Shown here: one piece after another, positions 4,648 to 59,565 of the stretch
Layout: the number at the start of each line of letters is the position of its first letter
How positions within the stretch are numbered: position 1 is the stretch's first letter
Source of the DNA: Planctomycetota bacterium
GTDB lineage: Bacteria; Planctomycetota; JAJSAM01
Direction: 5' to 3'
DNA length: 64,000 nucleotides
Assembly: GCA_024274785.1 (NCBI GenBank)
Contig: JAJSAM010000035.1
Location: forward strand, 85,613-149,612
The notes under the pieces: generated by a model
Seen by the model: only the letters and a program-made list of their open reading frames with translations
Databases searched by the model: none
Told to the model about the DNA's origin: nothing
Translations under genes and position numbers: made by a program

Positions 4648-6345
4648 ATGGAAGGACGGACTCTCCACATCCACGAGGCGCGGATCGGGATCGGTCTGCC
4701 TACCCGCACCGTTCGGCCGCACGGGCGGAAGGGCGATGAGATTCTGGCGGCGCTGCACACGGCGCTCGGGGAACCGGCGGACCGGATCGTTCTCACCGGC
4801 CGGTTGTTCGAGCGGCCGGATCCGGCGGCCCACCTGGTGGACCGGGTCGTGGCGCCGCTCGCGGATCTCGTCGCTCGGGGTATTGCGGTCACCGCTCCGT
4901 CCCACACGTCTCGTGCCCTGCTGTTCCTCGCGGCCGGAATCGGCCTCGCCGACGTGGACCTCCCGGGTCCTCCGGTCGAGTTCTGGCGGGTGGGGCGGTT
5001 TCGGGTGCTCAGCGGGGGGGAATCGGAGGTGCGCCAGGTCCGCCTTCCCGGCATCGCCGAAGTGACGATCGACCTGACCGGTCTGGCCATCGGTGAGGCT
5101 CTCGAGGCCATCCGCACCCGGCTGCGCCCGATTCAGGCGGTGCGGATGGTTCGGCTCACGCTTCACGGCCGGACCGCCGAGCGGGAACTGCTCACCTTCG
5201 GGCATCGGGAGATCCGCCACTACCTGCCGGGCGGCGTGGACGGCGCGGTGGTGAACGAACTGACCGGCCGCCGACCCGGAAACGGGCAGTTCGAGAGTGA
5301 CGACGCGCGGAAGGCCGCGCTCGCCGAGCGCCGGAAGCGCCTGCCGGACCTCCCCGAGACCACCGGGGTCTACGAGTTTCAGGACGATCGCGGTCGGCCG
5401 CTCTATGTCGGCAAGGCCGTGAACATCCGCCGGAGGGTAGCCTCGCACTTCACCGCCGAGGCCCGGGAGGAATCGCCGCGCGGCCCCATGCTTCTCGCTG
5501 CCCGGAACCTGGTCTTCTCCGAAATGCCGACCGAGGTGGAGGCCCTCCTCCGGGAGGCGGAGCGGATCCGGGAAGCCCGCCCCCCGTACAACCGGCAGAT
5601 GCGTGAGACCGAGAACTACCGGTATCTTCGCGCCGATGTCGACGCCGTTGTGCCGGGCATCACCTCGGTTCCGGAGACGAAGAAGGACGGCGCGGTCTAC
5701 ATCGGCCCGTTTCCAAAACGCTGGCCGGTGGAACGGTCCATCCGGACGCTGATGGTGATCTACGGCCTGAAGTCGTGCAAATGGAAGCCTTCGGAAGAGG
5801 CGCCCCCGATCTGCACCGATCGCGACCTCGACCTCTGCACCGCGCCATGTACCGGCCGGGTATCGCTCCCGGAGTATCGCGAGCGGGTGATGATGGCCCT
5901 CGACGACCTGCTCGGCACCGGACTCGGCGAGCCTGCGTTCGGTGCCCTGAACTCGCCGTCGGCCGGCCTGTTGGCCACCGGGGATCTGCGCATTCTGGAC
6001 AGGTTCCGGGGCAGTGTCCGCTACCTGCTCGACAACCTGCGCTCCGCCTGCGGGACCCTGCCGCTTTCCGATGGCCGAACGCTCCTCGTGCTGGGAGGCC
6101 TGCGTGCCGGCGTTCGGCGGGTGAGCGAAACCGAAGCTGACGAATGGCGCCGCCGGTCCCTCAGGGCCTTCTCCCGTCATCCGCCCCGCACCGCCGTCTC
6201 GGTATCGCGGGTGAACGAGGTGCGCATCCTCTCCCGGGCGCTGCGGGAGCAGGGGGCTTGCATCGTTCCCTCCACCGAGCGGCCCTGCCGCAATGGAGGG
6301 TCGACCTCCGGGCGACTGTGCTGGCAGTCCGGCAGCGTCATGTAG
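4648..6345 (+). CDS. GIY-YIG nuclease (Cho/UvrC N-terminal-half-like) with N-terminal degenerate calcineurin-like (SbcD/Mre11-like) region
   Basis: 565 aa. GIY-YIG motif TGVYEFQDDRGRPLYVGKAVNIRRRVASHF. UvrC-like Cys-rich segment (EAPPICTDRDLDLCTAPCTGRVSLPEYRERVMMALDDLL). N-terminus TLHIHEARIG / RIVLTGRLFERPD resembles the SbcD phosphoesterase motifs (LHTSDWHLG / VLIAGDLFD) with metal ligands substituted. The last 19 codons are supplied by repeat copy A. Confidence 0.6.
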   Translation: MEGRTLHIHEARIGIGLPTRTVRPHGRKGDEILAALHTALGEPADRIVLTGRLFERPDPAAHLVDRVVAPLADLVARGIAVTAPSHTSRALLFLAAGIGLADVDLPGPPVEFWRVGRFRVLSGGESEVRQVRLPGIAEVTIDLTGLAIGEALEAIRTRLRPIQAVRMVRLTLHGRTAERELLTFGHREIRHYLPGGVDGAVVNELTGRRPGNGQFESDDARKAALAERRKRLPDLPETTGVYEFQDDRGRPLYVGKAVNIRRRVASHFTAEAREESPRGPMLLAARNLVFSEMPTEVEALLREAERIREARPPYNRQMRETENYRYLRADVDAVVPGITSVPETKKDGAVYIGPFPKRWPVERSIRTLMVIYGLKSCKWKPSEEAPPICTDRDLDLCTAPCTGRVSLPEYRERVMMALDDLLGTGLGEPAFGALNSPSAGLLATGDLRILDRFRGSVRYLLDNLRSACGTLPLSDGRTLLVLGGLRAGVRRVSETEADEWRRRSLRAFSRHPPRTAVSVSRVNEVRILSRALREQGACIVPSTERPCRNGGSTSGRLCWQSGSVM

Positions 6346-6377
6346 AATCTGCGACCGCCGCGAAGATTTCGAACGTC
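6278..6377 (+). repeat. Dispersed ~100-bp intergenic repeat, copy A
   Basis: gcggccctgccgcaATGGAGGGTCGACCTCCGGGCGACtGTGCTGGCAGTCCGGcagCGTCAtgtagaatctgcgaccgccgcgaagatttcgaacgtc. Near-identical to copies at 8083, 48887 and (reverse complement) 32390. Contains a GGAGG-GTCGAC-CTCC hairpin. Confidence 0.85.
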
Positions 6378-6419
6378 AGTCGTTCCGAGGCCGATGATCA
6401 TGATATGGATTAGGTCCAT

Positions 6420-8082: not shown

Positions 8083-8152
8083 CAGCGCTCTCCAGCCGCA
8101 ATGGAGGGTCGACCTCCGGGCGACCGTGCCGGCGGTCCGGGAGCGTCACGTG
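8083..8152 (+). repeat. Dispersed intergenic repeat, copy B (shorter)
   Basis: agcgctctccagccgcaATGGAGGGTCGACCTCCGGGCGACCGTGCcGGCgGTCCGGgagCGTCAcgtgg, beginning 7 bp after the AKR stop. Confidence 0.8.
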
Positions 8153-8292
8153 GACGATCACTCGTTCCGGCCCCCTGGACTGGACCGCATCGGCCATGGT
8201 GCGGGCGCCGTCGAGAGGGCCGGCGAGGTCCGGAGGATCCGGCCGCCGCCCTCGCCCCTGGAGCCGTCGATCGTGATCATCGGTCGCGCCTC

Positions 8293-23060: not shown

Positions 23061-24278
23061 TCACCCGATGCGTCCGTACTCCAGCACCAGGATGCTGACG
23101 TCGTCCTCCGGGCGGCGGCGGCGGCCGAAGGTCTGGACGGCCTCCCAGACGCCATCGGCGGTGTCCTGCACCGATCGTCCGTCGTGGGCGGTCAGCACCT
23201 CAATCAGCCTCTCTTCACCGAAGAACTCTCCGTCCGGGCTTCGGGTGTCGAGGATGCCGTCGGTGTAGAGCACCACCCGGTCGCCGTCGCGGAGCAGGAT
23301 CTCGTCTTCGGTAAAGCCCTGCGCGGCGCCGAGGCCGATGATCGGGCCGTGGTGGGAGAGAGGCGAAACCGATCCGTCCGCCTCGATCAGGATCGGCGGT
23401 GGATGGCCGGCGCAGGCGTAGGTGAACTTCCCCTCGCCGAGTTCGAGAGTAGCGCACGCGATGGTCATGTAGCTGCCGAACCGCTCGAACGGGAATGCGG
23501 CCTCCAGGCTGTTCAACACGCTTGCCGGAGCACGCACGCCGCCGCCCCGGCCCATGATGCCCTGCCGGGAGAGCAGGAACTGGGACGCGGTGGTGGCCAT
23601 GAACGCGGCCGAGACGCCGTGCCCGCAGACATCGAGCATGTACAGGCCGAGTCGTTCGTGGTCGGGGCAGTGGAAGTTGAAGAAGTCGCCGCCGATCTGC
23701 CCGGAGGGGCGGAATCGCCAGGCGAGTCGCACGGAGTCGAGGTCGAGGCGGTCCTTCGGCAGGAGATTTCGCTGGATGCCGGCCGCGGCGGCCAGGTCGT
23801 CGTTGATCTGACGGCTCTTTCTCTCGAGCTCTTCCCGCTGGGTGACCTCTCCGGTGACGTCGTGGATGATCACCAGCACCATGTCCCGGCCCTTGAAGGC
23901 GAGCTTGCGGGTGCTGAGTTCGAGGTGCCGGGTGCTGGCCTGGCCCCCTCGGAAGAACTCCCGGGTGAGTGGCTGCCTGTCCACCGGAACGTCCTTCGTG
24001 AGCGTCTCGACGAGGGTTTGCCGGAGCACGCAGTTTCCGCAGTGGGTCGTCTCCCCGCACGGCCGTCCCTCCTCGCCGTGGTATCGGCAGCGCATGGCTT
24101 CGCCGAACCGGGTTTCGGTGGGATCGCGCTGGGGACTGTCGAAGAGGTCGAGGAACGATCGGTTGAAGCGGTGGATGCGCCCGCCCCCGTCGGCGATCAG
24201 CACCGCGGCGGTGATGTTGTCGAGGAGGAGGTTCAGGAAGTCGTTCGACTCGTGCAGGTCTTCGAGATCCGTGAACAT
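23061..24278 (-). CDS. PP2C-type Ser/Thr phosphatase (SpoIIE/RsbU-like) with N-terminal Cys-rich PAS-like sensor
   Basis: 405 aa. C-terminal PPM motifs (GGDFFNF...LGLYMLDVCGHGVSAAFM...LYTDGILD). N-terminal HGEEGRPCGETTHCGNC. Confidence 0.8.
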   Translation of the reverse strand: MFTDLEDLHESNDFLNLLLDNITAAVLIADGGGRIHRFNRSFLDLFDSPQRDPTETRFGEAMRCRYHGEEGRPCGETTHCGNCVLRQTLVETLTKDVPVDRQPLTREFFRGGQASTRHLELSTRKLAFKGRDMVLVIIHDVTGEVTQREELERKSRQINDDLAAAAGIQRNLLPKDRLDLDSVRLAWRFRPSGQIGGDFFNFHCPDHERLGLYMLDVCGHGVSAAFMATTASQFLLSRQGIMGRGGGVRAPASVLNSLEAAFPFERFGSYMTIACATLELGEGKFTYACAGHPPPILIEADGSVSPLSHHGPIIGLGAAQGFTEDEILLRDGDRVVLYTDGILDTRSPDGEFFGEERLIEVLTAHDGRSVQDTADGVWEAVQTFGRRRRPEDDVSILVLEYGRIG

Positions 24279-24492
24279 GACGGGCCAAGGTTACCATCCA
24301 GAGCCGGGGAACCGGCATCGCCCCCCGGGCGGGGCTCGCCCGGCCGACAAGCAACCCGACGCGCACTGTTACCTCTCGAGCAGGCAAAGCCACTCCCCTG
24401 AAGCAGGTGGAAACGGTGGCGGTCTCCTGCGAGACTGCTCTGTGGCTGAGCCGGATGGACTTGCGGAGGGAAGGGATGGGAGGATCCTGGAA

Positions 24493-27400
24493 GTGCCACT
24501 GACCAAGAAGTTGCTCTTCGACCTCGAGATCGACCGGAGGGGAGGGATTCGGCAGATCGGTGCGGTGCTCGACCGGGTGGAGTTCTATCGTGAGGTGTCC
24601 GGTAGCCCCGGGGCGGCGCTCGCGGAGTTGGATGCCTTCGCCCGGGGGGCGGCGTGCGTGCTCGGGCACAACGTCCTCGCGCACGATCTCCCGCATCTTC
24701 TGCGGGTGGCGCCGAACCTTCGGCTTCTGAAGCTGCCGGTGGTCGATACCCTTTTTCTCTCCCCTCTGGCCTTTCCCGAGAACCCCTATCACAGCCTGGT
24801 GAAGGACTACAAGCTGCTCTCCGCCTCGCTGAACGACCCCGTGGCGGATGCGCGGCTCGCCGGTCGGGCATTCTCCGAGCAATGGGAGGCCCTGGCCCTT
24901 GTCGCGACGGGTACTCCTCCGCTCATGGATCTCCTGCAGTTCTGTTTCCAGGGCGTCTCCTTCGTGGAGGGCGGCAGCGGGGACGGCATCGCCCGGGTCT
25001 TCTGCTCCCTCGCTGGCAGGCAGCCCCACGACGCGATCAATGCCGACAAAGCACATCAGATCTTCGCCGACCAGGCGCGGGATCTGTGTTGCCGGAGTGC
25101 GATCAACGAAGTTGGACGGGAGCTGATCGACGACGCCGTCCGGCGGCCCGAACTCGCCTTCATCGCCAGTTGGCTCCGGGTGGCCGGTGCGAAGTCGGTG
25201 TTACCGTCGTGGGTGCGGCATCGGTTCCCCGGTATCCGGACTGCCATCCACCGACTTCGCGATGCTCCCTGCGGCAACTCGGAGTGTTGCTACTGCAAGG
25301 GCACCCAGGATCCCGAGGAGCAGCTGAGACGGTTCTTCAAGTTCGACGGCTTCCGCTTGACCGGGGGCAAGCCGCTCCAACGGAAGATTGTGCTTGCGGG
25401 AATGCGCAACGAATCGCTGGTCGCCCTTCTGCCCACCGGTGGAGGCAAGTCCCTCAGCTTTCAACTCCCCGCCCTCGTGCGATACGTCCGACGCGGTGCG
25501 CTGACCGTCGTGATCTCGCCGCTGCAGGCGCTGATGAAGGACCAGGTGGAAGGTCTCGTCAAACGAACCGGCTCGCCCCACGCCGGTGCGATCTACGGGA
25601 TGCTCACCCCTCCTGAACGCCGCGAGCAACTTGAGCGCATCCGGCTCGGGGACACCGCGATCGTCTACGTCTCCCCGGAACAACTGCGCAACCGTTCGTT
25701 CCGGCAGACCATCCTCTCCCGAGAGATCGGTTGCTTCGTCTTCGATGAAGCCCACTGCATTTCGAAGTGGGGCCACGACTTCCGGCCGGACTACTTCTAT
25801 GCTTCCCGCTTCGTCCGTGAACTGGCCTCCGAGCAGGGCACGGAGATCCCGCCCGTGGCCTGTTTCACCGCCACGGGAAAACCGGACGTGATCGAGGAGA
25901 TCAAGGACCACTTCCGCACCGTCCTCGGCCACGAACTGGAGGAGTTCCGGGGACCCATCGCCCGTGAGGAGCTCGTCTACTCGGTGCGGGACACCACCGG
26001 GCCGCAGAAACTCGAGCAGGTGGCCGGCGTGCTTCGCGAGAAGCTCTTTTCGAACGGAGGTGGCGCGGGGATCGTGTACCGGGCCACCCGGAAGCGGACG
26101 GAGGAGACCGCCGAGTACCTGAAGAAGCGCGGGATCGTCGCCCGGGCGTTCCACGCCGGTCTCCGGGCGCCGACGAAACGCGAAGTCCAGGACGAGTTTC
26201 TCGCGGGAAAGGTGCCGGTGATCTGCGCCACCAACGCATTCGGCATGGGGATCGACAAGTCCGATGTCCGGGTGGTGGTGCATGCGGACATCCCGAGGTC
26301 GATCGAGAGTTACCTGCAGGAGGCTGGCCGCGCCGGCCGCGACCGCAAGCGGGCCGACTGCATCCTGCTCTTTGATGAGCACGACGTCGAGACGCAGTTC
26401 CGCCTGGCAGCTTTCGGAAAGATCACCCGGCACGATATCGTGCAGATCCGCCGCGCCGTGAAACGTGCCACTGATCGGCAGAAGGGGGCGGCCGTGATCA
26501 CTACCGGGGAGCTTCTGCGGGATCAGTATCTTGAGACTTCCATCGACGCGGAGGATCGCTCCGCGGACACCAAGGTAAAGATGGCGCTGTCCTGGCTCGA
26601 GCGGGCCGGATTCCTCGAGCGTAACGAGAACCGAACGACTGTTTTCCAGGGTGTGCCCCGGGTGAAGGACCTGGAGGAGGCCCGGTTGAAGATCAGCAGC
26701 AAGCAGGTTCCGGAGCAGACGGCGAGGCGGTGGATCGCCGTCCTCGAAGCGCTCCTCAACGCCGACCCGGATCAGGCGTTGACCTTTGACCAACTCGCGG
26801 GGCACCGGGCCTACGAGCATTTCTGGGCGACCTGTGACGGCACGATCGTGACCCGCCAGGTCCGCAAGGATCTCCATGAGATGGCTGAGGTCGGGCTGAT
26901 CGACCAGGGGCTCGTCTTCAGTGCGTTCGTCCGTCCCAGAGGGCAGAGGACTTCGAAGCGTCTCTTCGAGCAGGCGAGGGATAGCGAGGTCAGTCTGCTC
27001 GACCTGATCAGGAAGACCGCTCCCGACGCGGAACAGGGACAGTGGCAACTCCTCGAATTAAACAAGCTGCATCAGAGGCTCAAGTCCGGTGATACCGACT
27101 GCAGTCCGGAATCGATCCGGCTCCTCCTGAAGAGCTTGAGCATGGATGGGCGGGGCCTGGCCGGGAGCGGAGGCAGCCTGGAACTGGCGCAGACCTCACG
27201 GTTTCGCTATCGCGTGAAGGTCTCCCGAAAGTGGGACGCCCTCGAGGCGACCGCGAAGATCCGCCGTGAGGTCGCGTGGAAGGCACTGGCGGTGATGCTT
27301 GAAAAAGCGAAGCACGTTGGGGAGGAGGAGCAGCTCGTCTCGTTCACCGCGGCAGAGGTCGTGGCGGCAATTCACAAGGATCCCGCACTCGCCCGCAAGG

Positions 27401-29676
27401 TGAAGAGCCCCTTGGATGCCGTCGACCGCGGGCTGATGTTTCTCCACGAGCAGGGTTCGATCATCCTGCGCCAGGGCCTTGCGGTGTTCCGGCAGGCCAT
27501 GACCATCGAACTCTCGAAGGAGATGAGGGGGAGAACCTACTCGAAGAAGCACTACGACGCCCTCGATCGCCATTACGGAGAGCGCGTCGCGCAGGTCCAT
27601 GCCATGAACGAGTACGCCCGCCTGGCGCTGAAAGAACAGCGGGCGGCCGATCGATTCGTCAACGACTGCTTCAGCCTTGAGCGCGATGCGTTCTTCACGA
27701 AGTACTTCGGGGATCGGCAGGAGGTGCTGCGTCGGGCGACGGGGGTTGAGTCCTACCACCGGATCGTCACCGGGCTCGAGAACGACCACCAGATCGAGGT
27801 GGTGACCGCTCCCCTCGAGGGGAACATGCTGGTCCTGGCGGGACCGGGTTCCGGCAAGACCCGCGTGGTGGTGCACCGCTGCGCCTTCCTGCTCAGAGTT
27901 CAGAGAGTGCGTCCGGAGGAAGTGCTGATCCTCTGCTTCAATCACAACGCCGCGGTGGAGCTCCGAAAGAGGCTTGGCGACCTGATCGGCATGGACGCGC
28001 GAGGTGTCACCGCGCTGACCTACCACGGCCTGGCCATGCGGATCACCGGGACCTCGTTTGCGGAAAGGGCGGAATGCGATCAGGACGGGGAGATCAAGTT
28101 CGATGAGATCCTGCAGGACGCGGTGCGGCTGATCCGGGGGGATGTCGAGATCCCCGGGATCGAGCCCGACCAGGTGCGGGAGCGCCTGCTGGCCGGGTAC
28201 CGCTACCTGCTGGTGGACGAGTATCAGGATATCGACGAAGTGCAGTACGAGTTGGTCTCGGCGATCGCCGGCCGAACAGAGCAGGACGGGGAGAACAGAC
28301 TCCGGATTCTCGCGGTGGGGGACGACGACCAGAACATCTACACCTGGCGCGGCGCGGACGTGAGCTTCCTTCGGCGGTTCGAGGAGGACTATCAGGCCAG
28401 ACGGTTCCGACTGCTCCACAACTACCGCTCCTCGAAGAACATCATCGAAGTGTCCAACCGCTTCATCGCCACGAACCCTGGTCGCTTGAAAGTTTCCGAT
28501 CCCATCCGGGTCAACGAGCAGCGGGTGCTCTACGCGGCGGGGGGGCGCTGGGAGGGCCTGGATCCGGTCTCGCGGGGCCGGGTGAGGCAGATCATCATTT
28601 CGAGTCCGGCGGAAGAGGCTTCGGCGATCGTGGCAGAACTGCGTCGGGTGAAGGAGTTGGACTCCAATACCTCCTGGCATGAATTCGCCGTCCTGGCCCG
28701 GACCCGGAATACCCTGCAGCCGATCCGGTCGCTCCTCACGCACTACGGGATCCCCGTCTCGCTGGTGGTGCCGCGCGAGCAGGCCCCGCCCCTCAACCGC
28801 ATCCGCGAGATCGAGACATTGCTCAATTCGCTGAGGGAGAAGGCGGAGCAGAGTGTCCGGCCGACGGAGCTGCTGAAAGATGTCCACCGCGATCTCAAGA
28901 TGCGGCCCGGGCACTACTGGCTCGACCTCCTTCGCGAACTGCTGACGGCGTTCAAGGAGGAAACCTCGAACGCGGATCAGCCCCGCGGCCATGCGGTGGA
29001 GTATCTGTACGAGGCCCTCGTGCAGCGGCGCCGCGAGAGCCGGATCGGCGCGGGTGTCTACCTCGGGACCGTGCACTCGGCCAAGGGGATGGAGTTTCAG
29101 CACGTGATCATCCCCGCGACCGGTTGGGCGGAGTTGCGGGAAGATGCCACCGTGGGCGAGGAGCGCCGGACCTTCTATGTCGGCATGACTCGCGCGAGGG
29201 AGATGCTGACCGTGATCCACTGCCCCGGACTGTCTCCGTCCCACGTCGGACTGGTGGATGGCAAGGAGATCCTGTCCACCGGGCCGGCGGAGCAAGCGGC
29301 GGTGCCCGAGGGGATCCTCACGCGCCGGTACGAGGCCCTCGGCCTTTCCGACCTCTTCATCGACCTCGCCGGGCAGCGGGCCGCGTCGGACCCCATACAC
29401 AACGCGCTGATGCACCTGGATTGCGGATCGAGACTCACCGTGCGGGAGCAGTCCGGGAACGTGGTGCTCCTCGATGGGGGTGGATGCCCGGTCGCCAGGC
29501 TTTCGGCCTCGGCGAAGGAGCGCTGGCTGGCCCGGCTTCGGGATGTCGAATCAGTGTGCGTGCTGGCGATGATCAAGCGGCGACGTGGGGACACCGGTGA
29601 GGAGTACGAGGACCGCATGCGCGTCGATGCGTGGGAAGTCCCGTTCTGCGAGCTGATCTACCGGGAGCAGTGCTGA
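24493..29676 (+). CDS. Three-module DNA helicase/nuclease: DnaQ-like 3'-5' exonuclease, RecQ-family helicase, long linker, UvrD/PcrA-family helicase (1727 aa)
   Basis: Exo I motif (LLFDLEID) at N-terminus. RecQ motifs (LLPTGGGKSLSFQLPAL, VVISPLQALMKDQV, FVFDEAHCISKWGHDFRPDY, ATNAFGMGIDKSDVRVVVH, QEAGRAGRD). UvrD motifs (LVLAGPGSGKTRVVVHRCAFLL, LLVDEYQDIDEVQYELV, VGDDDQNIYTWRGADV, HNYRSSKNIIE, GTVHSAKGMEFQHVII, VGMTRAREML). GTG start at 24493 preceded by GGGAGGA RBS. The track ORF extends upstream without support. Confidence 0.85.
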   Translation: MPLTKKLLFDLEIDRRGGIRQIGAVLDRVEFYREVSGSPGAALAELDAFARGAACVLGHNVLAHDLPHLLRVAPNLRLLKLPVVDTLFLSPLAFPENPYHSLVKDYKLLSASLNDPVADARLAGRAFSEQWEALALVATGTPPLMDLLQFCFQGVSFVEGGSGDGIARVFCSLAGRQPHDAINADKAHQIFADQARDLCCRSAINEVGRELIDDAVRRPELAFIASWLRVAGAKSVLPSWVRHRFPGIRTAIHRLRDAPCGNSECCYCKGTQDPEEQLRRFFKFDGFRLTGGKPLQRKIVLAGMRNESLVALLPTGGGKSLSFQLPALVRYVRRGALTVVISPLQALMKDQVEGLVKRTGSPHAGAIYGMLTPPERREQLERIRLGDTAIVYVSPEQLRNRSFRQTILSREIGCFVFDEAHCISKWGHDFRPDYFYASRFVRELASEQGTEIPPVACFTATGKPDVIEEIKDHFRTVLGHELEEFRGPIAREELVYSVRDTTGPQKLEQVAGVLREKLFSNGGGAGIVYRATRKRTEETAEYLKKRGIVARAFHAGLRAPTKREVQDEFLAGKVPVICATNAFGMGIDKSDVRVVVHADIPRSIESYLQEAGRAGRDRKRADCILLFDEHDVETQFRLAAFGKITRHDIVQIRRAVKRATDRQKGAAVITTGELLRDQYLETSIDAEDRSADTKVKMALSWLERAGFLERNENRTTVFQGVPRVKDLEEARLKISSKQVPEQTARRWIAVLEALLNADPDQALTFDQLAGHRAYEHFWATCDGTIVTRQVRKDLHEMAEVGLIDQGLVFSAFVRPRGQRTSKRLFEQARDSEVSLLDLIRKTAPDAEQGQWQLLELNKLHQRLKSGDTDCSPESIRLLLKSLSMDGRGLAGSGGSLELAQTSRFRYRVKVSRKWDALEATAKIRREVAWKALAVMLEKAKHVGEEEQLVSFTAAEVVAAIHKDPALARKVKSPLDAVDRGLMFLHEQGSIILRQGLAVFRQAMTIELSKEMRGRTYSKKHYDALDRHYGERVAQVHAMNEYARLALKEQRAADRFVNDCFSLERDAFFTKYFGDRQEVLRRATGVESYHRIVTGLENDHQIEVVTAPLEGNMLVLAGPGSGKTRVVVHRCAFLLRVQRVRPEEVLILCFNHNAAVELRKRLGDLIGMDARGVTALTYHGLAMRITGTSFAERAECDQDGEIKFDEILQDAVRLIRGDVEIPGIEPDQVRERLLAGYRYLLVDEYQDIDEVQYELVSAIAGRTEQDGENRLRILAVGDDDQNIYTWRGADVSFLRRFEEDYQARRFRLLHNYRSSKNIIEVSNRFIATNPGRLKVSDPIRVNEQRVLYAAGGRWEGLDPVSRGRVRQIIISSPAEEASAIVAELRRVKELDSNTSWHEFAVLARTRNTLQPIRSLLTHYGIPVSLVVPREQAPPLNRIREIETLLNSLREKAEQSVRPTELLKDVHRDLKMRPGHYWLDLLRELLTAFKEETSNADQPRGHAVEYLYEALVQRRRESRIGAGVYLGTVHSAKGMEFQHVIIPATGWAELREDATVGEERRTFYVGMTRAREMLTVIHCPGLSPSHVGLVDGKEILSTGPAEQAAVPEGILTRRYEALGLSDLFIDLAGQRAASDPIHNALMHLDCGSRLTVREQSGNVVLLDGGGCPVARLSASAKERWLARLRDVESVCVLAMIKRRRGDTGEEYEDRMRVDAWEVPFCELIYREQC

Positions 29677-31844: not shown

Positions 31845-32330
31845 ATGCTCTACCGCGTCAAGGAGAAGTTCTGGTCCTGGGGAAACGACTTTTCGATCAC
31901 GGACGCCGACGGCAAACCCTGCTTCCTGGTCGACGGCGCCGCGTTCTCCTGGGGCGACGACCTTTCGGTGCAGGATCCCGACGGGCGCGAGCTGGCCCGG
32001 ATCACTCAGAAGCTGTTCTCCTTCATGCCTCGCTACCGCATCTACATCGGTGGAGAGTTTTTCGCGGAGGTCATCAAGGAGTGGACCTGGTTCAAGAAGA
32101 ACTTCACTCTGGATGTTCCGGGCCCGAACGATTACGCGATCGAGGGCTCGTTCTGGGAGCACGAGTTCGAGTTCGTGCGCGGCCGCCACGTGGTCGCTCG
32201 AGTGAGCAAGGACTACTGGAACTGGACGGACAGCTACGGCGTTTCGATCGAGGAAGGCGAAGACGACATCTCGATCATCTGCGCCTGCATCGTCATCGAC
32301 CAGGTCCTGCACGACGACAAGAACGACTGA
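31845..32330 (+). CDS. LURP-one-related (LOR/DUF567) tubby-C-terminal-like protein
   Basis: 161 aa. MLYRVKEKFWSWGNDFSITDADGKPCFLVDG...YRIYIGGEFFAEVIKEWTWFKKNFTLD: typical LOR/scramblase-like beta-barrel pattern. Confidence 0.6.
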   Translation: MLYRVKEKFWSWGNDFSITDADGKPCFLVDGAAFSWGDDLSVQDPDGRELARITQKLFSFMPRYRIYIGGEFFAEVIKEWTWFKKNFTLDVPGPNDYAIEGSFWEHEFEFVRGRHVVARVSKDYWNWTDSYGVSIEEGEDDISIICACIVIDQVLHDDKND

Positions 32331-32350
32331 TCACGTTACTCCGCCCCTGT

Positions 32351-32379
32351 GCAATCTGAATTCCACATATTCAGATTGC
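32351..32379 (+). terminator. Perfect 11-bp AT-rich inverted repeat (hairpin) downstream of the LOR gene
   Basis: GCAATCTGAAT-tccacat-ATTCAGATTGC. No U-tract follows. Lies at the left edge of the lower-GC island. Confidence 0.3.
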
Positions 32380-32389
32380 GGAGAGCCAT

Positions 32390-32497
32390 CATCAAATCGC
32401 CGTGCACGCCGCCGTCACAGAAATACATCTGACGCTCCCGGACCGCCAGCACGGTCGCCCAGAGATCGACCCTCCATTGCGGCTGGGCCGCGCTGTG
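32390..32497 (-). repeat. Dispersed intergenic repeat, copy D (reverse orientation)
   Basis: Reverse complement of ...gccagcacggtcgcccagagatcgaccctccattgcggctgggccgcgctgtg matches copies A-C, including the tail (gtcacagaaatacatctgacgctcccggaccgcc vs rc of copy A). Confidence 0.8.
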
Positions 32498-32623
32498 GCG
32501 GTAGGAATCTGATCACGGCGAGCTTCACCCGGTCGGTCCCAACTCCGGGTCTTGGTCGCATCCATACGATCGCTTGACACGGTCCCATGCTGTGCTCCAA
32601 TGAGAGATGAGAGGAGCATTGGG

Positions 32624-33649
32624 ATGAGTGTCGGACCGAGGGTGCCTCCGGAAGTTTGCGGACTTCTCCGGGCGATCGAATGTTCTCTGGCCGGGAACGA
32701 GACGTACCTTGATGCCTGGTACCGAACGAAGCGTGTAAGCCTCGGGCGTACGCTCTATTCCTGGACGAGAAAAAGCCAATCTGCAGATGAGATCCTTCAG
32801 GCCATCCTGATCGCTGCGCTGCACGCGTCACGCGCGCGGACCACCGTGAAAAACGAGGCGGGGTGGATGTCTCGCGTCGCCGCGAATACCCTCGCAGACA
32901 TCAGGCGCGAGGATCGCCTTCGCAGATGCCAGTCCCATGAATTGTGCGACCTGCCCGATGAATCGAGTCTGGCCGACCCTTTCCGGGTCATCGCCGCAAA
33001 GGACGCCTTGTGCCGTATGATCATCATTGCCGCAACTTTCGGATCACCGGAGCGCGAAGCACTTCTGCTTCGTCTCAAATACCGTTGGGACCAGGGAGAG
33101 ATCGACCTATGGCTCACGAACTGGCTCGGGATAGGCAAAGACCGGGCTCGCAAGATCAGACGGAGTGGCCGGAAACTGCTGCGGAAGGTGGTTTCCGGCA
33201 AGTGCGCTGGGCGGGTTGGTCCTCGGCACAGAGTTTTGACGCCCCCCCCCCCCGTTTTCCTGACTAATACTACAGTCAAGCCGCGACCTCATGAAACGCC
33301 GAAGTCTCGGCAGATCGCAGAGGCCGCAAACCAAAGGAGGAAGGGATGGGAGTCTCCGTCAAGTCTGTATTGCTCGCCGCATTGCTCTACGTGTGCATCT
33401 TTGCGCTCGCCCAGCAGGTTGAGGCGACGGAATGCACCGGGGTTGGGCAAAACCGCAAGAGTTCCTTGGACCAATTCGGCAGTTGTCCCTCCAACGAAGA
33501 CTGGTGCTGCACCTTTGCACGCTTCGAGGGCCTCGGTGTCCCGGACAGTGCGAGTTGCGACCCGGTGGAGCGGTCAGCGACTCTGGATAATCCTGATCCC
33601 AACCAGAACAGCATTGACCCGATGCTTTCCAACGAGGTACCTACCGTGA
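32624..33649 (+). CDS. Divergent ECF-like sigma-70 family protein; true 3' end uncertain (C12 tract at 33242-33253)
   Basis: Strong RBS (GAGGAG) before ATG 32624. Region-2-like (ADEILQAILIAALHASRAR) and region-4-like (SPEREALLLRLKYRWDQGEIDLWLTNWLGIGKDRARKIRRSGRKLLRKV) segments. Several Cys (CGLLRAIEC, CQSHELC). After the polyC (PPPP) the frame runs a further about 130 codons overlapping the next gene and looks non-coding. A tract of C11 or C13 would terminate within 5 codons. Confidence 0.5.
   Translation: MSVGPRVPPEVCGLLRAIECSLAGNETYLDAWYRTKRVSLGRTLYSWTRKSQSADEILQAILIAALHASRARTTVKNEAGWMSRVAANTLADIRREDRLRRCQSHELCDLPDESSLADPFRVIAAKDALCRMIIIAATFGSPEREALLLRLKYRWDQGEIDLWLTNWLGIGKDRARKIRRSGRKLLRKVVSGKCAGRVGPRHRVLTPPPPVFLTNTTVKPRPHETPKSRQIAEAANQRRKGWESPSSLYCSPHCSTCASLRSPSRLRRRNAPGLGKTARVPWTNSAVVPPTKTGAAPLHASRASVSRTVRVATRWSGQRLWIILIPTRTALTRCFPTRYLP
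33242..33253. repeat. C12 homopolymeric tract inside the 3' end of the ECF-like sigma ORF
   Basis: gaCCCCCCCCCCCCgttttcc read directly in the sequence. Confidence 0.9.
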
Positions 33650-33798
33650 TTACACACTACGGTTCAGGGATCGGCCACCAGTGGGTCGTTAAGGTGTGCG
33701 GACCGGCGGGAATCCCAGTCCACATCACCGTTTCGTTCCGCAATTCGTTCGGACTATCGACAGCCTCTTGGGCGATCATTATTAAACCAGAGTGCTGA
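33346..33798 (+). CDS. Secreted cysteine-rich small protein (150 aa)
   Basis: Strong RBS (AAAGGAGGAAGGGATG). Signal peptide (MGVSVKSVLLAALLYVCIFALAQQVEA). Mature part has 8 Cys (TECTG...GSCPSNEDWCCTFARF...SCDP...VCGP...PEC). Lower-GC region. Confidence 0.65.
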   Translation: MGVSVKSVLLAALLYVCIFALAQQVEATECTGVGQNRKSSLDQFGSCPSNEDWCCTFARFEGLGVPDSASCDPVERSATLDNPDPNQNSIDPMLSNEVPTVITHYGSGIGHQWVVKVCGPAGIPVHITVSFRNSFGLSTASWAIIIKPEC

Positions 33799-33864
33799 GC
33801 ATTTTCATGGCGATTGAAGATGTGCCATTCCCCGGCCATTTGCATTCCCGGAAGGTCGCCTCAA

Positions 33865-36339
33865 ATGACGAATTCGAGATGGCTGCTATTGGTGATCTCA
33901 ATCGCCATAGTTTGCGCGGCAGTTGGCGCACTATCCGTCGATAATGAAGCCAAACCGCCGCACCAGGTGGTCGAAAGCTACGCCTCGTCTGAGGTCAAGG
34001 AACTCCCAACTGTCGAGAGGGCGCAGGCTGCAAATGGCGTGGGGATTGATGTCCAGCCACCACTGCAGCACGGCGAAGAAATCAAGGCAACCTGGCTGAT
34101 CGGGGGTGTAGATCGCCAGGTTGCCGCAGTGCCCTCTGTTGCTGGGCTGGATCACATCGATCTACCGTATCCTTCAGAAACGCCAGAGTCGCTGACTCTC
34201 GCGCGGGATGGATTCGCTTCCGCCCGGATCGATCACACGGTGAACGGTGGGCGGTACGCTGTTGAGTTCGTACGCTGCGGTTCGGCGTTGGTCTGCGTAG
34301 AATCCACCACTGGAGCATACGACCCGGAAACTGCCGCCGTTCGCCTCGAGTGCAATGGCCTTCGCCATTCCCCGGTTGAACAGCATGGTGGGGAGTTCAG
34401 GTTTGAAGATCTGTCTCCCGGTCGATATGGGGTCGATCTCGACCCGGACGGTTCTGGCTTCATCACTTTCGGGTATCTCCCCGTTAACGCAGGACAGCCA
34501 TCGAGATTCGGCATCGACCTCCGGGGGCAGTCTGACATTGCCGGGCGGATCCTCATGCACGGTAGACCGCTTGCGGATTCCAGCGCGCTTACCGTGAGGA
34601 TGACGGAAGCTCAACTGAAGGTGGCAAGGCCCCAGTATGTACTCCCCGTGAATCCGGATGGGTCGTTTCAGGGCCAGGTGCGGCGGGGCGACTACTCGGT
34701 CACGGTGGTGAGAGGCGAGCAACTGGTCGGGACTTTCGCCTGGATGGTGTCAACCAGGGAGGAGAGCCGGGACTTTGACCTGGCGGAGGTTCTCCGGGTC
34801 TCGGGGCGAATTCTGGATGCCGAGGGGCAAACACTTCCGAACGTGGACCTGGTCTTCGCGGAGCCCCGAGAGGGTGGAGGAGTTCACAGCTGTCGGAGCG
34901 ATGATTCGGGCGAGTTCAGAGCACTTCTTCCCGCTGGAGTGCGCCACAGTGTTCAGATTCGGGGGAAGTCTTTCGGAGTGATGACCCTGGGTTCCATCAC
35001 TCTCACCGAGGACACGACGATCGACTTTCAGATTCCATGCGGAAGCAAGGTGCATGGCCGGATTTCTTCCGCAAATGGTGAACCTCTGGCCGGTGTCATC
35101 ATCAGTCTGATGAACTGGCGGGTGCGTACGGGAGATTCTGGTGAGTTCGAGATTGCGGATGTGCCCGCCGGTCGATTCAAGATCTACGCCTACAGACAAC
35201 CTGGCAACATTCTCATCAATTTCAGTGATCTGATTGTAGTGGGTGGGGAAGACCTTTGGTTGGAACTCGTGGAGGATCTTCCCCCAGCGGGGTTTGTCGC
35301 CGGGAAGGTGGTTTCTGCCGACGGAAAGCCGATATCGGGTATCCGAGTTCAGGCCGCGGGTGTCGCCGGCGGGCTGACCGGATGCATCACGAAGCGCGAC
35401 GGGAAGTTCAAGTTCAAGGTTCACGGTGATGTGGTCAATGTGTGGGCAAATGGCCCGGAGGAGAAGGGGCTTTGCAGGGCGGTGGCCAAGGTACCGCTCG
35501 GGACTCAGGATATCGTTCTGGTTCTCCTGGCCCCGGTCGAGTTGAAATTCGTGTTCATGCTGGATCAGAAGCGATTCTTGGGCCCGATTGACGGTCTGTT
35601 GGCGCTCAAGGATGAGAGTGGTAAGTCAACTGCGTTGGGAGTGGGCTCATCTGCGAGGGCCATGGAACGTTTCCGGCGCATACCCGCAGGTCGCTATAGG
35701 ATGATGTTCCTGTTCAGTCAGTCATTTGCGAACACCGACTGGTTCGAGGTCGACCTCCGGGAGAGTCAACGCTCGGAGGTGCAGGTTGAACTGGTGGCCG
35801 GTTCGCAGCCTGCGCTTGATTTCGATTCGCCATTCTCCGGCAGGTTCGCCGTGCGGTCCGGAGATGGGCGGATTGTGTACGCCGTGGATCTGCTCAACGC
35901 CAGGTCATCATTCCGGATTGGCCGGATCCTCCCGGCCGGGAGCTACGAGGTGCTTGCGTTCTCCCGATACGGTGAGGTTGCAGTGGGTCAGCTCGAGGTT
36001 CTCGCCGACCACTCTGAACCGGTCTCCTGGGAGGTCTTTCGGGGCAGTATCCAGATCAAGGTGATGGATGCGGCCGGGAACCCCGTGGTCGGTCGGCGGA
36101 TCCGGGTCTGTGCGGCTGAGAACTGCCGGGACGTGCCCCTGGGCATCGCTGTGGAGAAGTTGCAGATGGGCTCCGTCCTTACGGAGCGACAAGCACTGAC
36201 CGACGATGGAGGACGATGTTGTTTCGCGGGGCTGCTTCCGGCGAGCTACGTCCTTACCGGCCATGGAGGAGATGCGGTAACCGTCATCGTTGGCGAGGGA
36301 GATGCCAGCCACCCTGCGGTACTCCTCACATGCGAATGA
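33865..36339 (+). CDS. N-terminally anchored 824-aa protein made of carboxypeptidase-regulatory-like (CarbopepD_reg/Ig-like) beta-sandwich repeats
   Basis: TM/signal anchor (WLLLVISIAIVCAAVGALSV). Repeated about 80-90-aa units with G-x-hydrophobic motifs, e.g. GRISSANGEPLAGVIISLMNWRVRTGDSGEFEIADVPAGRFKIYA and GKVVSADGKPISGIRVQAAG...DGKFKFKV. ATG 33865 has GGAAGG RBS. The track ORF start at 33814 is TTG. Confidence 0.65.
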   Translation: MTNSRWLLLVISIAIVCAAVGALSVDNEAKPPHQVVESYASSEVKELPTVERAQAANGVGIDVQPPLQHGEEIKATWLIGGVDRQVAAVPSVAGLDHIDLPYPSETPESLTLARDGFASARIDHTVNGGRYAVEFVRCGSALVCVESTTGAYDPETAAVRLECNGLRHSPVEQHGGEFRFEDLSPGRYGVDLDPDGSGFITFGYLPVNAGQPSRFGIDLRGQSDIAGRILMHGRPLADSSALTVRMTEAQLKVARPQYVLPVNPDGSFQGQVRRGDYSVTVVRGEQLVGTFAWMVSTREESRDFDLAEVLRVSGRILDAEGQTLPNVDLVFAEPREGGGVHSCRSDDSGEFRALLPAGVRHSVQIRGKSFGVMTLGSITLTEDTTIDFQIPCGSKVHGRISSANGEPLAGVIISLMNWRVRTGDSGEFEIADVPAGRFKIYAYRQPGNILINFSDLIVVGGEDLWLELVEDLPPAGFVAGKVVSADGKPISGIRVQAAGVAGGLTGCITKRDGKFKFKVHGDVVNVWANGPEEKGLCRAVAKVPLGTQDIVLVLLAPVELKFVFMLDQKRFLGPIDGLLALKDESGKSTALGVGSSARAMERFRRIPAGRYRMMFLFSQSFANTDWFEVDLRESQRSEVQVELVAGSQPALDFDSPFSGRFAVRSGDGRIVYAVDLLNARSSFRIGRILPAGSYEVLAFSRYGEVAVGQLEVLADHSEPVSWEVFRGSIQIKVMDAAGNPVVGRRIRVCAAENCRDVPLGIAVEKLQMGSVLTERQALTDDGGRCCFAGLLPASYVLTGHGGDAVTVIVGEGDASHPAVLLTCE

Positions 36340-48886: not shown

Positions 48887-48990
48887 ACAGCGCGGCCCTG
48901 CCGCGATGGAGGGTCGATCTCCGGGCGACCGTGCTGGCAGTCCGGGAACGTCACGCAGGTTCTGCGAGTGCCGCGAAGGTTTTGAACGTC
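48887..48990 (+). repeat. Dispersed intergenic repeat, copy C
   Basis: acagcgcggccctgccgcgATGGAGGGTCGAtCTCCGGGCGACCGTGCTGGCAGTCCGGgaaCGTCAcgcaggttctgcgagtgccgcgaaggttttgaacgtc: full-length match to copy A. Confidence 0.85.
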
Positions 48991-49031
48991 CATGGTACAG
49001 AGGCCAGCCGAGCCAGGGGAGCGGGAGCGAG

Positions 49032-50048
49032 TTGAGGACGAATTGCCCTGACACCGTATCGGTCATCCTGTGCATCGCCGCCATTCTGCTCGCGTCCTGC
49101 AACGGTCCCCCGATATCGGATTCTCCGGTGAGTCTCGACGGTGTCGCGACCTGGGCCATCCAGCTCCAGGGGCTCGACCGCGCCGGCGCTATCGACCGCC
49201 TGGCCCGGGCGGACGTCGACCTGGTGGTGATCGAATCGATGAACACCATGCGTGACCACGCTGACTTCCCCATCGTCCCCGTGGTCCGCCAGGTGAAGGC
49301 CACTCCGGGCGCCATGCTTCCGCGAAAGCTCTGCCTGGCCTATCTGAACGTCGGGCAGGCCGAGGACTACCGGGAGTACTGGGGCGAAGACTGGGTTTCA
49401 CCACGCTCCGATGCGCCGGGGTCTCCCGCGTTCCTGCTCGCCGCGGACCCGGATGGGTGGGCCGGCAACTGGCCGGTGGCGTACTGGGACCGGAGGTGGC
49501 GGGCGATTCTCTTCGGTTCCCCGGAGGCGCTCCTCGAACGCGCGATCGAGCAAGGTTTCGACGGGGTGATGCTCGACTGGGTGGCGGGTTGGTCGCGCCC
49601 GCTCGTCTCCGCCGCCGCCCGAGAGGCCGGAGTCGATCCGGCGGCGGCGATGGCCGACCTGATTCGCGAACTCGGCCGCCGCGCGCGGACCCTGCGGCCG
49701 GGCTTCCTGCTGCTCCTGAACGACGGCGCCCCCCTGCTCGAGCGCATCCCGTCCCTTTCGGAGTGCGTGGACGGAGTCGTACGGGAATCGGTCTGGTTCA
49801 CCGGCCGGTCATCGGACCGTTGGGATGACCCCGCCAACGCGGATGTCCGAGTCGCGGACCCGGAACCCGTGATCCGAAGCCTGGCCCACGCGCGGCGTCT
49901 CGGCGTGCGGGTCTTCACTCTCGACTATGCATCCCGACCTTCACGGCGCGAGGAAGCGGTCCGGCGCGCTCATCGAAACGGCTTCGTGCCCTTCGTCAGC
50001 CGCACTCCCCTGGACCGCCTGCCAAAGTACGGGGCCGCGCAAGAATAA
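49032..50048 (+). CDS. GH114-like (endo-alpha-1,4-polygalactosaminidase / TM1410-family TIM-barrel) lipoprotein
   Basis: Lipobox (VILCIAAILLASC). WAIQLQGLD...DLVVIE...CLAYLNVGQAEDYREYW...GFDGVMLDW matches the GH114/TM1410 pattern (the PelA hydrolase-domain family). TTG start 49032 inferred. Convergent with pelG. Confidence 0.55.
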   Translation: MRTNCPDTVSVILCIAAILLASCNGPPISDSPVSLDGVATWAIQLQGLDRAGAIDRLARADVDLVVIESMNTMRDHADFPIVPVVRQVKATPGAMLPRKLCLAYLNVGQAEDYREYWGEDWVSPRSDAPGSPAFLLAADPDGWAGNWPVAYWDRRWRAILFGSPEALLERAIEQGFDGVMLDWVAGWSRPLVSAAAREAGVDPAAAMADLIRELGRRARTLRPGFLLLLNDGAPLLERIPSLSECVDGVVRESVWFTGRSSDRWDDPANADVRVADPEPVIRSLAHARRLGVRVFTLDYASRPSRREEAVRRAHRNGFVPFVSRTPLDRLPKYGAAQE

Positions 50049-50195
50049 CCTCGCCCCTCCGGAGGGAATTCCGGCACTCAGCCCGAGTTGGCTCGATACC
50101 CCTCTTCACCGCAGCGACCCGCCAGGACACCACACATCCTCTGATGGTTTCCACGGTTACGGAAACGCGGCGTGCGCCCTCACGAGAAAGGCGGG

Positions 50196-51572: not shown

Positions 51573-51573
51573 G

Positions 51574-59000: not shown

Positions 59001-59565
59001 CCCCGCAGAGCGCTCCGAGATCGACCACCTTCCGGCTCTTCCCTCCCAGGTGCAGGAAGAACGCCTCCAACTCCCTTGCCCCTCGTTCGTTCATCTCGAT
59101 GGTGCGCAACAGGCGAACCGCCTCGTGTGGCCCCATCGTCCCGCCCCGGTCGTCGGCGAGGGTGGCGAGGGCGCTTCGGCGTGCGACCAGTGCGGGGATG
59201 GTCGCACCGATCAACTCCAGCCTCTTTGCGGCTTCCGCCGGTGAGTAGAGCTCCTCTTCCAGGAGGAAGGCCACGCGGGCCAGGTTCGCCGGATCGCGCA
59301 CCTGCACCTGTTTCGCCCGGAGCAGATCGAGCGCCAGTCTCGCATCTCCGAGATTCCGAGCCTGCTCGATCAGGAATCTGCTCGCCATCGACGGATCCGT
59401 CGCACTCCCCTCCGACGACGGCTCGCTCGGAATGAAGGGTTCGGATCCCGCGGCGGGCAGCGAACTCAGGATCTGCCCGGGGGGCTCGTAGCAGACCGCG
59501 ATCAGGGTGAGCGCCGAACTGGCGATGAGCGTGAAGACGATGATGCCGCTCCAGGAAACCGTCAT
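56092..59565 (-). CDS. pelB: Pel outer-membrane export/scaffold protein PelB (N-terminal TPR array plus C-terminal beta-barrel), with an in-frame TAG at 57781-57783
   Basis: Two track ORFs (57781..59565 TPR part with signal/TM; 56092..57681 TPR plus C-terminal beta-barrel ending ...LELRFTLRW) share one frame. Read-through: ...LYESLAE*NPEEAKSWTRIGQIASWSNDPYGAIVSFERALAVGG... Confidence 0.8.

What the first reader, a model, noticed from the sequence alone, without database searches (positions are those of the whole stretch)
6278..6377. Dispersed ~100-bp intergenic repeat family (4 copies in 64 kb) with GGAGG-GTCGAC-CTCC hairpin core
Copies at 6278-6377, 8083-8152 (truncated), 48887-48990 and 32390-32497 (inverted) share GCAATGGAGGGTCGACCTCCGGGCGACCGTGCTGGCAGTCCGG..CGTCA. 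Three of them share a further 40-bp tail (tctgcgaSYgccgcgaagRtttYgaacgtc). All are intergenic or at gene ends: one forms a gene's 3' end, one begins 7 bp after a stop, two lie 40-130 bp upstream of + strand genes. One reading frame is stop-free in all four copies (LPQWRVDLRATVLAVRERH...). This looks like a REP/MITE-like mobile or regulatory element, possibly a small-RNA or promoter cassette.
Basis: seen in the sequence. Interest (0 to 1): 0.6.

Follow-up and report, generated by a model that had tools for sequence, protein, structure and literature searches.

The report
Small mobile intergenic DNA repeat family
A non-coding sequence of about 110 bases that occurs four times in this window is a small piece of mobile DNA: one copy is a clean insertion missing from two close relatives. 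This is an ordinary kind of genomic passenger, although the family is rare, undescribed and lacks the usual inverted ends.

Summary
The repeat family is real. There are four copies in 64 kb (nhmmer E 1e-21 to 1e-32), sharing a 54-nt core that differs at only 1-6 positions.

Copy 1 is a precise 110-bp insertion (6280-6389). Two related metagenome contigs have the uninterrupted site. The insertion replaced the last codons of a UvrC-like gene. Copy 2 is a 68-bp relic truncated at both ends, inside a decayed gene. Copy 3 is full length. Copy 4 is inverted and has a degenerate tail.

Scans of 185,579 species genomes, 241 million metagenome contigs and IMG/VR found only one further full copy, in a Myxococcota MAG.

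The element is not coding and matches no Rfam family. Its fold is not unusually stable and it shows no compensatory covariation. It has no terminal inverted repeats, and its target duplication is at best ambiguous (CCGAG). No transposase is encoded in the window. A sigma-70-like promoter exists only in copy 1.

Best reading: a non-autonomous, TIR-less miniature insertion element, mobilised in trans by an unknown enzyme. "MITE", "REP", "sRNA" and "promoter cassette" are each unsupported as stated. A CRISPR-repeat-like look on the bottom strand was tested and not supported. Interest is modest: a new member of a known kind.

The parts
6280..6389 (+). Copy 1, full length (110 bp). It is an insertion relative to related contigs and supplies the last 21 codons and the stop of ORF 4648-6345.
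   Evidence: Removing 6280-6389 restores a colinear alignment with L023 and L025. nhmmer E 2.6e-32. The 565-aa read-through protein is the one on record for the source contig.
6275..6279 (+). CCGAG on the left flank of copy 1. It is repeated as the last 5 nt of the insertion (6385-6389), so it is either a possible 5-bp target duplication or microhomology.
   Evidence: Direct reading. Not significant against shuffles.
6287..6340 (+). 54-nt conserved core of copy 1. It holds two adjacent top-strand hairpins: GGAGG-N5-CCTCC (6295-6309) and CCGGGC-N13-GTCCGG (6308-6332).
   Evidence: The core differs at 1-6 of 54 positions among five copies. Both hairpins are 100% paired in all copies, and the only changes turn G-C into G-U.
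6321..6348 (+). Sigma-70-like promoter match CTGGCA-16-TAGAAT, specific to copy 1 and facing the RmlC-like gene at 6420.
   Evidence: There is no such match in c3 or c4.
8084..8151 (+). Copy 2, a 68-bp relic lacking both ends. It replaces about 170 bp of native sequence, and remnants of a lost minus-strand gene follow it (8152-8171 and 8178-8215).
   Evidence: blastn against L021. nhmmer E 2.3e-21.
48893..49002 (+). Copy 3, full length, in the same 110-bp register as copy 1. It lies between the AcrB stop (48690) and the TTG start of the GH114 lipoprotein (49032).
   Evidence: The start at 49032 is confirmed by the identical 338-aa database protein P0121.
32391..32490 (-). Copy 4, inverted, with an intact core (32430-32483) and a degenerate tail. 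It lies between the LURP-like gene (stop 32330) and the sigma70_r2-like gene (start 32624).

Best explanation
The repeats are copies of a non-autonomous miniature insertion element of about 105-110 bp. It carries no gene and no terminal inverted repeats.

Shown:
- The element inserts into new sites. Copy 1 landed in the last codons of a UvrC-like gene, about 30 nt before the next gene's start.
- Copies then decay. Copy 2 is truncated at both ends, and copy 4 has a degenerate tail.
- A near-identical copy exists in another Myxococcota genome.

Inferred:
- Movement depends on an enzyme encoded elsewhere in the genome.
- That enzyme recognises the strongly conserved 54-nt core. The core can form two adjacent hairpins on the top strand only, so a single-strand-specific enzyme (HUH/Y1 type) or a site-specific recombinase is more likely than a classical DDE transposase.
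- Insertion prefers sites following a CAC(A/C)G-like motif.

Effects on the host look like by-products of insertion. They are a new C-terminus for the upstream protein, loss of the close spacing or overlap between the upstream stop and the RmlC-like start seen in the relatives, and, in copy 1 only, a promoter-like sequence facing the downstream gene.
For: - Family membership: four copies, with E-values from 1e-21 to 1e-32, and the core 22-mer occurs 4 times against 0.03 expected.
- Empty sites: L023 (82.5% nt identity over 1.7 kb) and L025 (its AKR is in the same 90% cluster as the window's own) both run from the UvrC-like gene straight into the RmlC-like gene. Deleting window 6280-6389 gives an essentially gap-free alignment (one 1-nt gap downstream of the junction) with both contigs.
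- Copy 2: it interrupts a sequence that is continuous in L021 (91.7% nt identity), and short remnants of the L021 gene remain beside it.
- Distribution: patchy and rare. No copy was found in about 16 kb of contigs from the closest relatives, nor in L024 or L026. Only one other full copy was found in all collection scans.
- Not coding and no Rfam family.
- Hairpin arms are intact in all five copies. Their only changes are top-strand C-to-T changes that keep G-T pairing.
- All four copies with a left end are preceded by CAC(A/C)G, and the empty site in L023 reads CACAGA at that position.
Against: - No terminal inverted repeats and no significant flanking direct repeats. The ends cannot be fixed to the base.
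- No transposase, integrase or RAYT domain in any sizeable ORF of the window.
- Only one empty site could be obtained. For c3 and c4 the relatives differ in gene content right after the neighbouring stop codon.
- The genome-wide copy number is unknown. The other genome yielded only one exact-core match in the collection scan, so the element may be low-copy rather than a typical high-copy repeat.
- The core is more conserved than the tail, which a purely neutral parasite model does not predict.
Confidence: 0.6

Rival explanations
1. The element is a host regulatory module, such as a promoter or operator cassette, a 5' leader or a small RNA gene. It was duplicated in front of several genes and is kept by selection, and the 54-nt core is the functional part.
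For: The core differs at only 1-6 of 54 positions among copies, including one in another genome, while the tails differ more. In c1 and c3 the GAACGTC tail motif ends 41-42 nt (the 110-bp unit about 30 nt) before a start codon in the same orientation. c1 carries CTGGCA-16-TAGAAT. The hairpin arms are intact.
Against: The promoter match is in c1 only. c4 points at the 3' end of a convergent gene, and c2 lies in a gene remnant. The neighbouring genes are functionally unrelated. Close relatives manage without the element at the c1 site. There is no Rfam hit and no compensatory change, and the fold z-scores are about 0. The element is absent from nearly all genomes searched.
Confidence: 0.15
2. 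The copies are recombination scars, or att-like sites of a site-specific recombinase, marking junctions where larger mobile or variable segments were gained or lost. They would not be copies of a self-contained mini-transposon.
For: For c2, c3 and c4, gene order in the nearest relatives changes right beside the copy. c4 sits at the start of a low-GC stretch. Native target sequences resemble the element's own ends at c1 and c2, as att cores do. The only outside copy lies in a defence-island setting next to a type III-D CRISPR-Cas locus.
Against: c1 is a clean 110-bp insertion with nothing else gained or lost. The window encodes no integrase or recombinase. The relatives used for c3 and c4 are distant or have very short contigs, so synteny breaks there are weak evidence. 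The flank similarities are not significant in shuffle tests.
Confidence: 0.15
3. The bottom strand carries a solitary CRISPR-repeat-like unit: the hairpin GGAGGTCGACCCTCC followed by an 8-nt handle-like ATTGCGGC. The element would therefore be a dispersed crRNA-like or anti-CRISPR-like RNA gene.
For: There are weak Rfam CRISPR-DR20 matches on the bottom strand of c1 and c2 whose 3' end, CAUUGCGGC, is identical to the model consensus. The only outside copy lies 2.4 kb beyond a type III-D cas operon. Solitary repeat units and cr-like RNAs are known (PMC10651486; bioRxiv 10.1101/2023.03.03.530964).
Against: The Rfam scores are 12.5-13.3 bits against a gathering score of 42, with E 4-6, and c3 gives no such hit. 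The 21-repeat array beside the outside copy has an unrelated repeat, GTCCAAAGGGGAGCCCCGTTCAGGAGGGGATTGAGAC, which shares only ATTG.G.C. The window has no cas gene or array. No array with a similar repeat was found in plasmids or IMG/VR. The genome scan for the core 22-mer on both strands found no array.
Confidence: 0.05
4. The copies are duplicated fragments of a protein-coding gene.
For: Several frames are open through the copies. One frame is used as the C-terminus of the 565-aa protein.
Against: Non-synonymous codon differences outnumber synonymous ones in all six frames, and variable sites show no period-3 pattern. Open frames are expected at 66% GC. The relatives' versions of the 565-aa protein end without this sequence.
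Confidence: 0.02

Closest known systems
MITEs of bacteria (for example Correia in Neisseria, RUP, ERIC, Nezha)
   Same: Size of about 100-150 bp and no coding capacity. Dispersed in intergenic regions and at gene ends. Presence/absence polymorphism between relatives. Occasional read-through into neighbouring ORFs and occasional outward promoters.
   Different: MITEs are defined by terminal inverted repeats matching a parent IS and by a fixed-length target duplication. No TIRs are present here, and the duplication is ambiguous.
IS200/IS605-derived PATEs and REP/REPIN elements mobilised by HUH (Y1) transposases
   Same: No TIRs and no clear target duplication. Strand-specific hairpins. A short conserved motif, CAC(A/C)G, on the left flank of every copy.
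   Different: The hairpins at the left and right ends are not alike. There is no long REPIN-type hairpin. No TnpA, RAYT or TnpB is encoded nearby. Copy number appears low, and the GTAG-type REP head is absent.
Solitary CRISPR repeat units / cr-like RNAs (Racr, CreA, CreR)
   Same: A hairpin followed directly by an 8-nt handle-like ATTGCGGC on the bottom strand. One copy lies near a type III-D locus.
   Different: There is no similarity to the adjacent array's repeat beyond ATTG.G.C. The four window copies are far from any cas gene, and the statistical support is insignificant.
Integron attC sites / CALINs
   Same: About 100-bp repeats at the 3' ends of genes. Two direct copies flank a two-gene unit (c1 and c2).
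   Different: There are no R''/R' cores (RYYYAAC ... GTTRRRY) and no overall imperfect palindrome. The flanked RmlC-AKR pair is present in relatives without the repeats.

Membership tests
MITE | Terminal inverted repeats | tested here: not met
   Local alignment of the left halves against the reverse-complemented right halves of c1, c3, c4 and L002 gives only 8-18-nt chance-level matches, at different places in each copy.
MITE | Target-site duplication of fixed length | tested here: inconclusive
   c1 has CCGAG/CCGAG. c3 has CAGCG/CAGAG. L002 has none. The shuffle test gives P 0.04-0.45.
MITE | Small, non-coding, multicopy, with presence/absence polymorphism | tested here: met
MITE | Parent IS with the same ends in the genome | not testable with these tools
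No transposase domain was found in the window.
REP/REPIN | 20-40-nt imperfect palindrome, usually in inverted pairs forming a long hairpin | tested here: not met
   Only two short hairpins (5 and 6 bp) are present. Whole-element fold z-scores range from -1.5 to +0.4.
REP/REPIN | RAYT gene and high copy number | not testable with these tools
   There is no Y1_Tnp hit in the window. The rest of the genome is unavailable.
IS200/IS605-type PATE | No TIR and no TSD, with insertion 3' of a short conserved target | tested here: inconclusive
   No TIRs. The left flank reads CAC(A/C)G in 4 of 4 copies, and the empty site reads CACAGA. With five copies this cannot be told apart from part of the element.
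IS200/IS605-type PATE | Similar subterminal hairpins at both ends | tested here: not met
   There is no significant direct similarity between the left and right halves.
Structured RNA family (Rfam) | Match to a covariance model at gathering score, or covariation support | tested here: not met
   No hit at gathering score. Only E>2 noise at the permissive threshold. The RNAalifold covariation term is unfavourable on both strands. No two-sided changes were seen.
Solitary CRISPR repeat unit | Close similarity to the repeat of a resident CRISPR array | tested here: not met
   The array in L035 has an unrelated repeat. The window has no array. The arrays of the source genome could not be examined.
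Integron attC | R''-L''/L'-R' imperfect palindrome with a GTTRRRY core | tested here: not met
   Direct reading of the sequence.

The most novel reading that the evidence does not exclude
The element is a mobile solitary CRISPR-repeat-like unit. Transcription of its bottom strand would give a hairpin plus an AUUGCGGC handle, followed by 14 nt of element and then whatever genomic sequence flanks the insertion. Each insertion would therefore create a cr-like RNA whose 'spacer' is complementary to the transcript of the neighbouring gene (or acts as a Cas decoy). A milder version of this reading is a new class of TIR-less, target-motif-specific mini-transposon moved by an uncharacterised recombinase.
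Probability: 0.05. Interest if true: 0.75.

Novelty: new member of a known kind. Interest (0 to 1): 0.3.

Why it matters
The element is a documented case of a very small, TIR-less insertion in an uncultured lineage, probably Myxococcota. It rewrites a gene's C-terminus and separates two closely spaced (overlapping in one relative) genes, so annotators should not read the 21 element-derived codons as native protein. If a full-genome census fixed its ends and identified the enzyme that moves it, the element could point to a mobilisation mechanism other than the classical DDE/TIR one. As it stands it is mainly of local value, for annotation and for understanding genome plasticity in this lineage.

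Tried and rejected
- **Rfam:** nothing at gathering score over the whole window. Permissive scans of c1, c2 and c3 gave only noise.
- **Folding:** single-sequence folds of both strands were not more stable than shuffles. RNAalifold on both strands showed no covariation.
- **Sigma-54 promoter:** the core has TGGCAG-N5-GAGC with GG-N10-GC spacing. I rejected this by reading the sequence, because the -12 TGC is absent, c3 loses the GC, and c2 and L002 lose the T of TGGC.
- **Coding fragment:** rejected.
- **Collection scans:** the core 22-mer in genome contigs gave one true copy and one 27-nt partial match. Two patterns in metagenome contigs gave 0 hits and 18 chance hits; the chance hits fell in an FtsY gene and a tandem-repeat protein, among others. 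Four viral scans gave only chance hits. Plasmid BLAST found nothing.
- **Source contig:** the attempt to reach it failed, because exact proteins are not in the gene-position index.
- **Empty sites for c3 and c4:** the nearest relatives (L026, L032, L033, L034) diverge in gene content right after the neighbouring stop codon, so no comparison was possible.
- **Repeat structure:** no TIRs, internal direct repeats or long target duplications above chance.
- **CRISPR lead:** I fetched the cas locus beside the outside copy and read its array. The repeat is unrelated.
- **tRNA-like origin:** ARAGORN found nothing in the window.

Full report
**Observation.**
The core 22-mer GGAGGGTCGAYCTCYGGGCGAC occurs four times, against 0.03 expected from shuffles. 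A profile built from the copies recovers only those four (E 2.6e-32, 6e-32, 1.1e-29, 2.3e-21), and the next hit has E 0.47.

Every copy holds a 54-nt core, from GCCGCAATGG to GCGTCA. The cores lie at 6287-6340, 8095-8148, 48900-48953 and 32430-32483 (minus strand). Pairwise they differ at only 1-6 positions.

The roughly 40-nt tail (TCTGCGA..GCCGCGAAGRTTTYGAACGTC) is well kept in c1 and c3. In c4 it is barely recognisable, and in c2 it is absent.

**Genes around the copies.**
- c1 supplies the last 21 codons and the stop of a 565-aa GIY-YIG/UvrC-like ORF (4648-6345). It ends about 30 nt before the ATG of an RmlC-like gene (6420).
- c2 follows the stop of an aldo/keto reductase (AKR) gene (8076).
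- c3 lies between an AcrB gene (stop 48690) and the TTG start (49032) of a GH114 lipoprotein. An identical 338-aa database protein confirms that start.
- c4 is inverted. It lies between a LURP-like gene (stop 32330) and a sigma70_r2-like gene (start 32624).
- The neighbouring genes are functionally unrelated, and the copies are not consistently oriented towards them.

**Key result: c1 is an insertion.**
A homology search with the AKR found close relatives on short metagenome contigs. L023 is 82.5% identical in nucleotides over 1.7 kb. The AKR of L025 falls in the same 90% cluster as the window's own.

In both contigs the UvrC-like gene runs directly into the RmlC-like gene. In L023 its stop lies 7 nt before the ATG. 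In L025 the two genes overlap by 4 nt. Deleting window 6280-6389 (110 bp) restores an essentially gap-free alignment with both contigs across the junction; the one 1-nt gap lies downstream of it.

The insertion is bounded by CCGAG (6275-6279 and 6385-6389). It replaced the native C-terminus (…PSTEPDDRGME in L023) with 21 element-derived residues.

**Copy 2 is a relic.**
L021 is 91.7% identical in nucleotides to the window across the AKR. Against L021, native sequence runs to 8083. A 68-bp piece of the element lacking both ends then replaces about 170 bp. Two short remnants of a minus-strand gene that is intact in L021 follow, at 8152-8171 and 8178-8215.

**No empty site could be obtained for c3 or c4.**
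The nearest relatives have different genes immediately after the neighbouring stop codon. For c3 these are L026 (77% nucleotide identity over the efflux operon) and L032. For c4 they are L033 and L034.

**Distribution.**
- The scan of 185,579 species-representative genomes found one further full-length copy, in a Myxococcota MAG (JAJRTE010000113; L002 290-390). Its core is 98% identical to that of c2, and overall it is 89% identical to c1.
- The same scan found a 27-nt identity in an Opitutales MAG, which then continues into its own perfect hairpin.
- Two metagenome scans and four IMG/VR scans gave no true member. Plasmid BLAST also gave nothing.
- No copy occurs in about 16 kb of contigs from the closest relatives. 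None occurs in the more distant L024 and L026, or elsewhere in 17 kb of the Myxococcota contig.
- The family is therefore rare and patchy, which fits a lineage-restricted selfish element better than a conserved regulatory RNA.

**What it is not.**
- *Not coding.* In all six frames non-synonymous differences dominate, and variable sites show no period-3 pattern. Open frames are expected at 66% GC.
- *Not a known RNA family*.
- *No structural support.* The folds are no more stable than shuffles. RNAalifold finds no covariation on either strand.
- *Hairpins are consistent with a top-strand fold but do not prove one.* Two short top-strand hairpins, GGAGG-N5-CCTCC and CCGGGC-N13-GTCCGG, are fully paired in all five copies. 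Their only changes are C-to-T changes that keep G-T(U) pairs, and these would be A-C mismatches on the other strand.
- *Not a promoter cassette.* A sigma-70-like promoter (CTGGCA-16-TAGAAT, 6321-6348) exists in c1 only. It rests on three c1-specific substitutions, so promoter activity is at most a secondary acquisition.

**Class of element.**
There are no terminal inverted repeats, no internal direct repeats and no flanking duplication beyond chance. Pfam detects no transposase, integrase or RAYT in the window's ORFs. The defining features of MITEs and REPs are therefore not met.

All four copies with a left end are preceded by CAC(A/C)G, and the empty site reads CACAGA at that position. Native sequences at the c1 and c2 junctions resemble the element's own ends. 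This hints at target preference or homology-guided insertion, as seen with HUH transposases or site-specific recombinases. With five copies I cannot separate flank from element.

**The CRISPR lead.**
The bottom strand reads as a hairpin followed by ATTGCGGC, and it gives weak CRISPR-DR20 hits (12.5-13.3 bits, E 4-6). The outside copy lies 2.4 kb beyond a type III-D cas operon.

I fetched that locus. Its 21-repeat array has an unrelated repeat, GTCCAAAGGGGAGCCCCGTTCAGGAGGGGATTGAGAC, which shares only ATTG.G.C with the element. The window has no array or cas gene. This reading is not excluded for the unseen rest of the source genome, but it is unsupported.

**Verdict.**
The best-supported explanation is a non-autonomous, TIR-less miniature insertion element that is mobilised in trans. 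Insertion and decay are shown. The enzyme and the role of the core are inferred.

This is a new member of the broad, well-known class of small dispersed bacterial repeats. It is of modest interest unless a whole-genome census reveals an unusual mobilising enzyme or a CRISPR connection.

Noticed in passing
window 51574-53079 (-): The PelF homologue is interrupted by an in-frame stop at 52318-52320 (…AGVCY*LADEIF…). This splits it into a DUF3492 part and a GT1 part. A relative (L024) has a single 501-aa PelF. The cause could be a nonsense mutation, a pseudogene or an assembly error.
   Followed up: partly
window 49032-61676: A Pel-type exopolysaccharide locus (PelG, the split PelF, a TPR protein and several proteins with no Pfam hit) lies on the minus strand, next to a GH114 lipoprotein gene on the plus strand.
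   Followed up: partly
window 32000-36000: A low-GC stretch (0.58-0.59 against about 0.66) begins at copy 4. It encodes a 341-aa protein with a weak Sigma70_r2 match and an 841-aa ORF (33814-36339) with three CarboxypepD_reg domains. It may be an acquired island.
   Followed up: no
window 32352-32378: A perfect 10-bp inverted repeat, CAATCTGAAT-N7-ATTCAGATTG, lies 21 nt after the stop of the LURP-like gene and just beyond the tail of copy 4. No T tract follows it.
   Followed up: no
window 23842-29676 (+): A very long ORF (1944 aa) combines DEAD/Helicase_C and UvrD-helicase/UvrD_C domains. Its listed start overlaps the SpoIIE phosphatase gene on the other strand, so the true start is probably later.
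   Followed up: no
window 8152-8215: Two short remnants (20 and 38 nt, 92-95% identical) of a 262-aa minus-strand gene that is intact in relative L021. The gene has been lost in the window's lineage next to copy 2.
   Followed up: yes
L035 1-14518 (Myxococcota MAG JAJRTE010000113): A type III-D CRISPR-Cas locus with a Cas02710 protein, an AEP-TOTE primase-like gene directly upstream of cas1-cas2, a 21-repeat array (4748-6258), Cas10 and fused Cas7 proteins. The pairing of the primase-like gene with the adaptation genes is unusual.
   Followed up: partly
L001 2543-2738 (Opitutales MAG JBNPEH010000008): A 27-nt identity to the element core (TGGAGGGTCGACCTCCGGGCGACCGT) lies between two 51-nt direct repeats that are 98% identical, and a third copy of that repeat lies 3.6 kb away. 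It may be a distantly related element or a chance match.
   Followed up: partly
L026 3313-6491: In the relative GCA_029935835.1 the AcrB homologue is called as two overlapping ORFs (691 and 381 aa). This suggests a frameshift or an assembly error.
   Followed up: no
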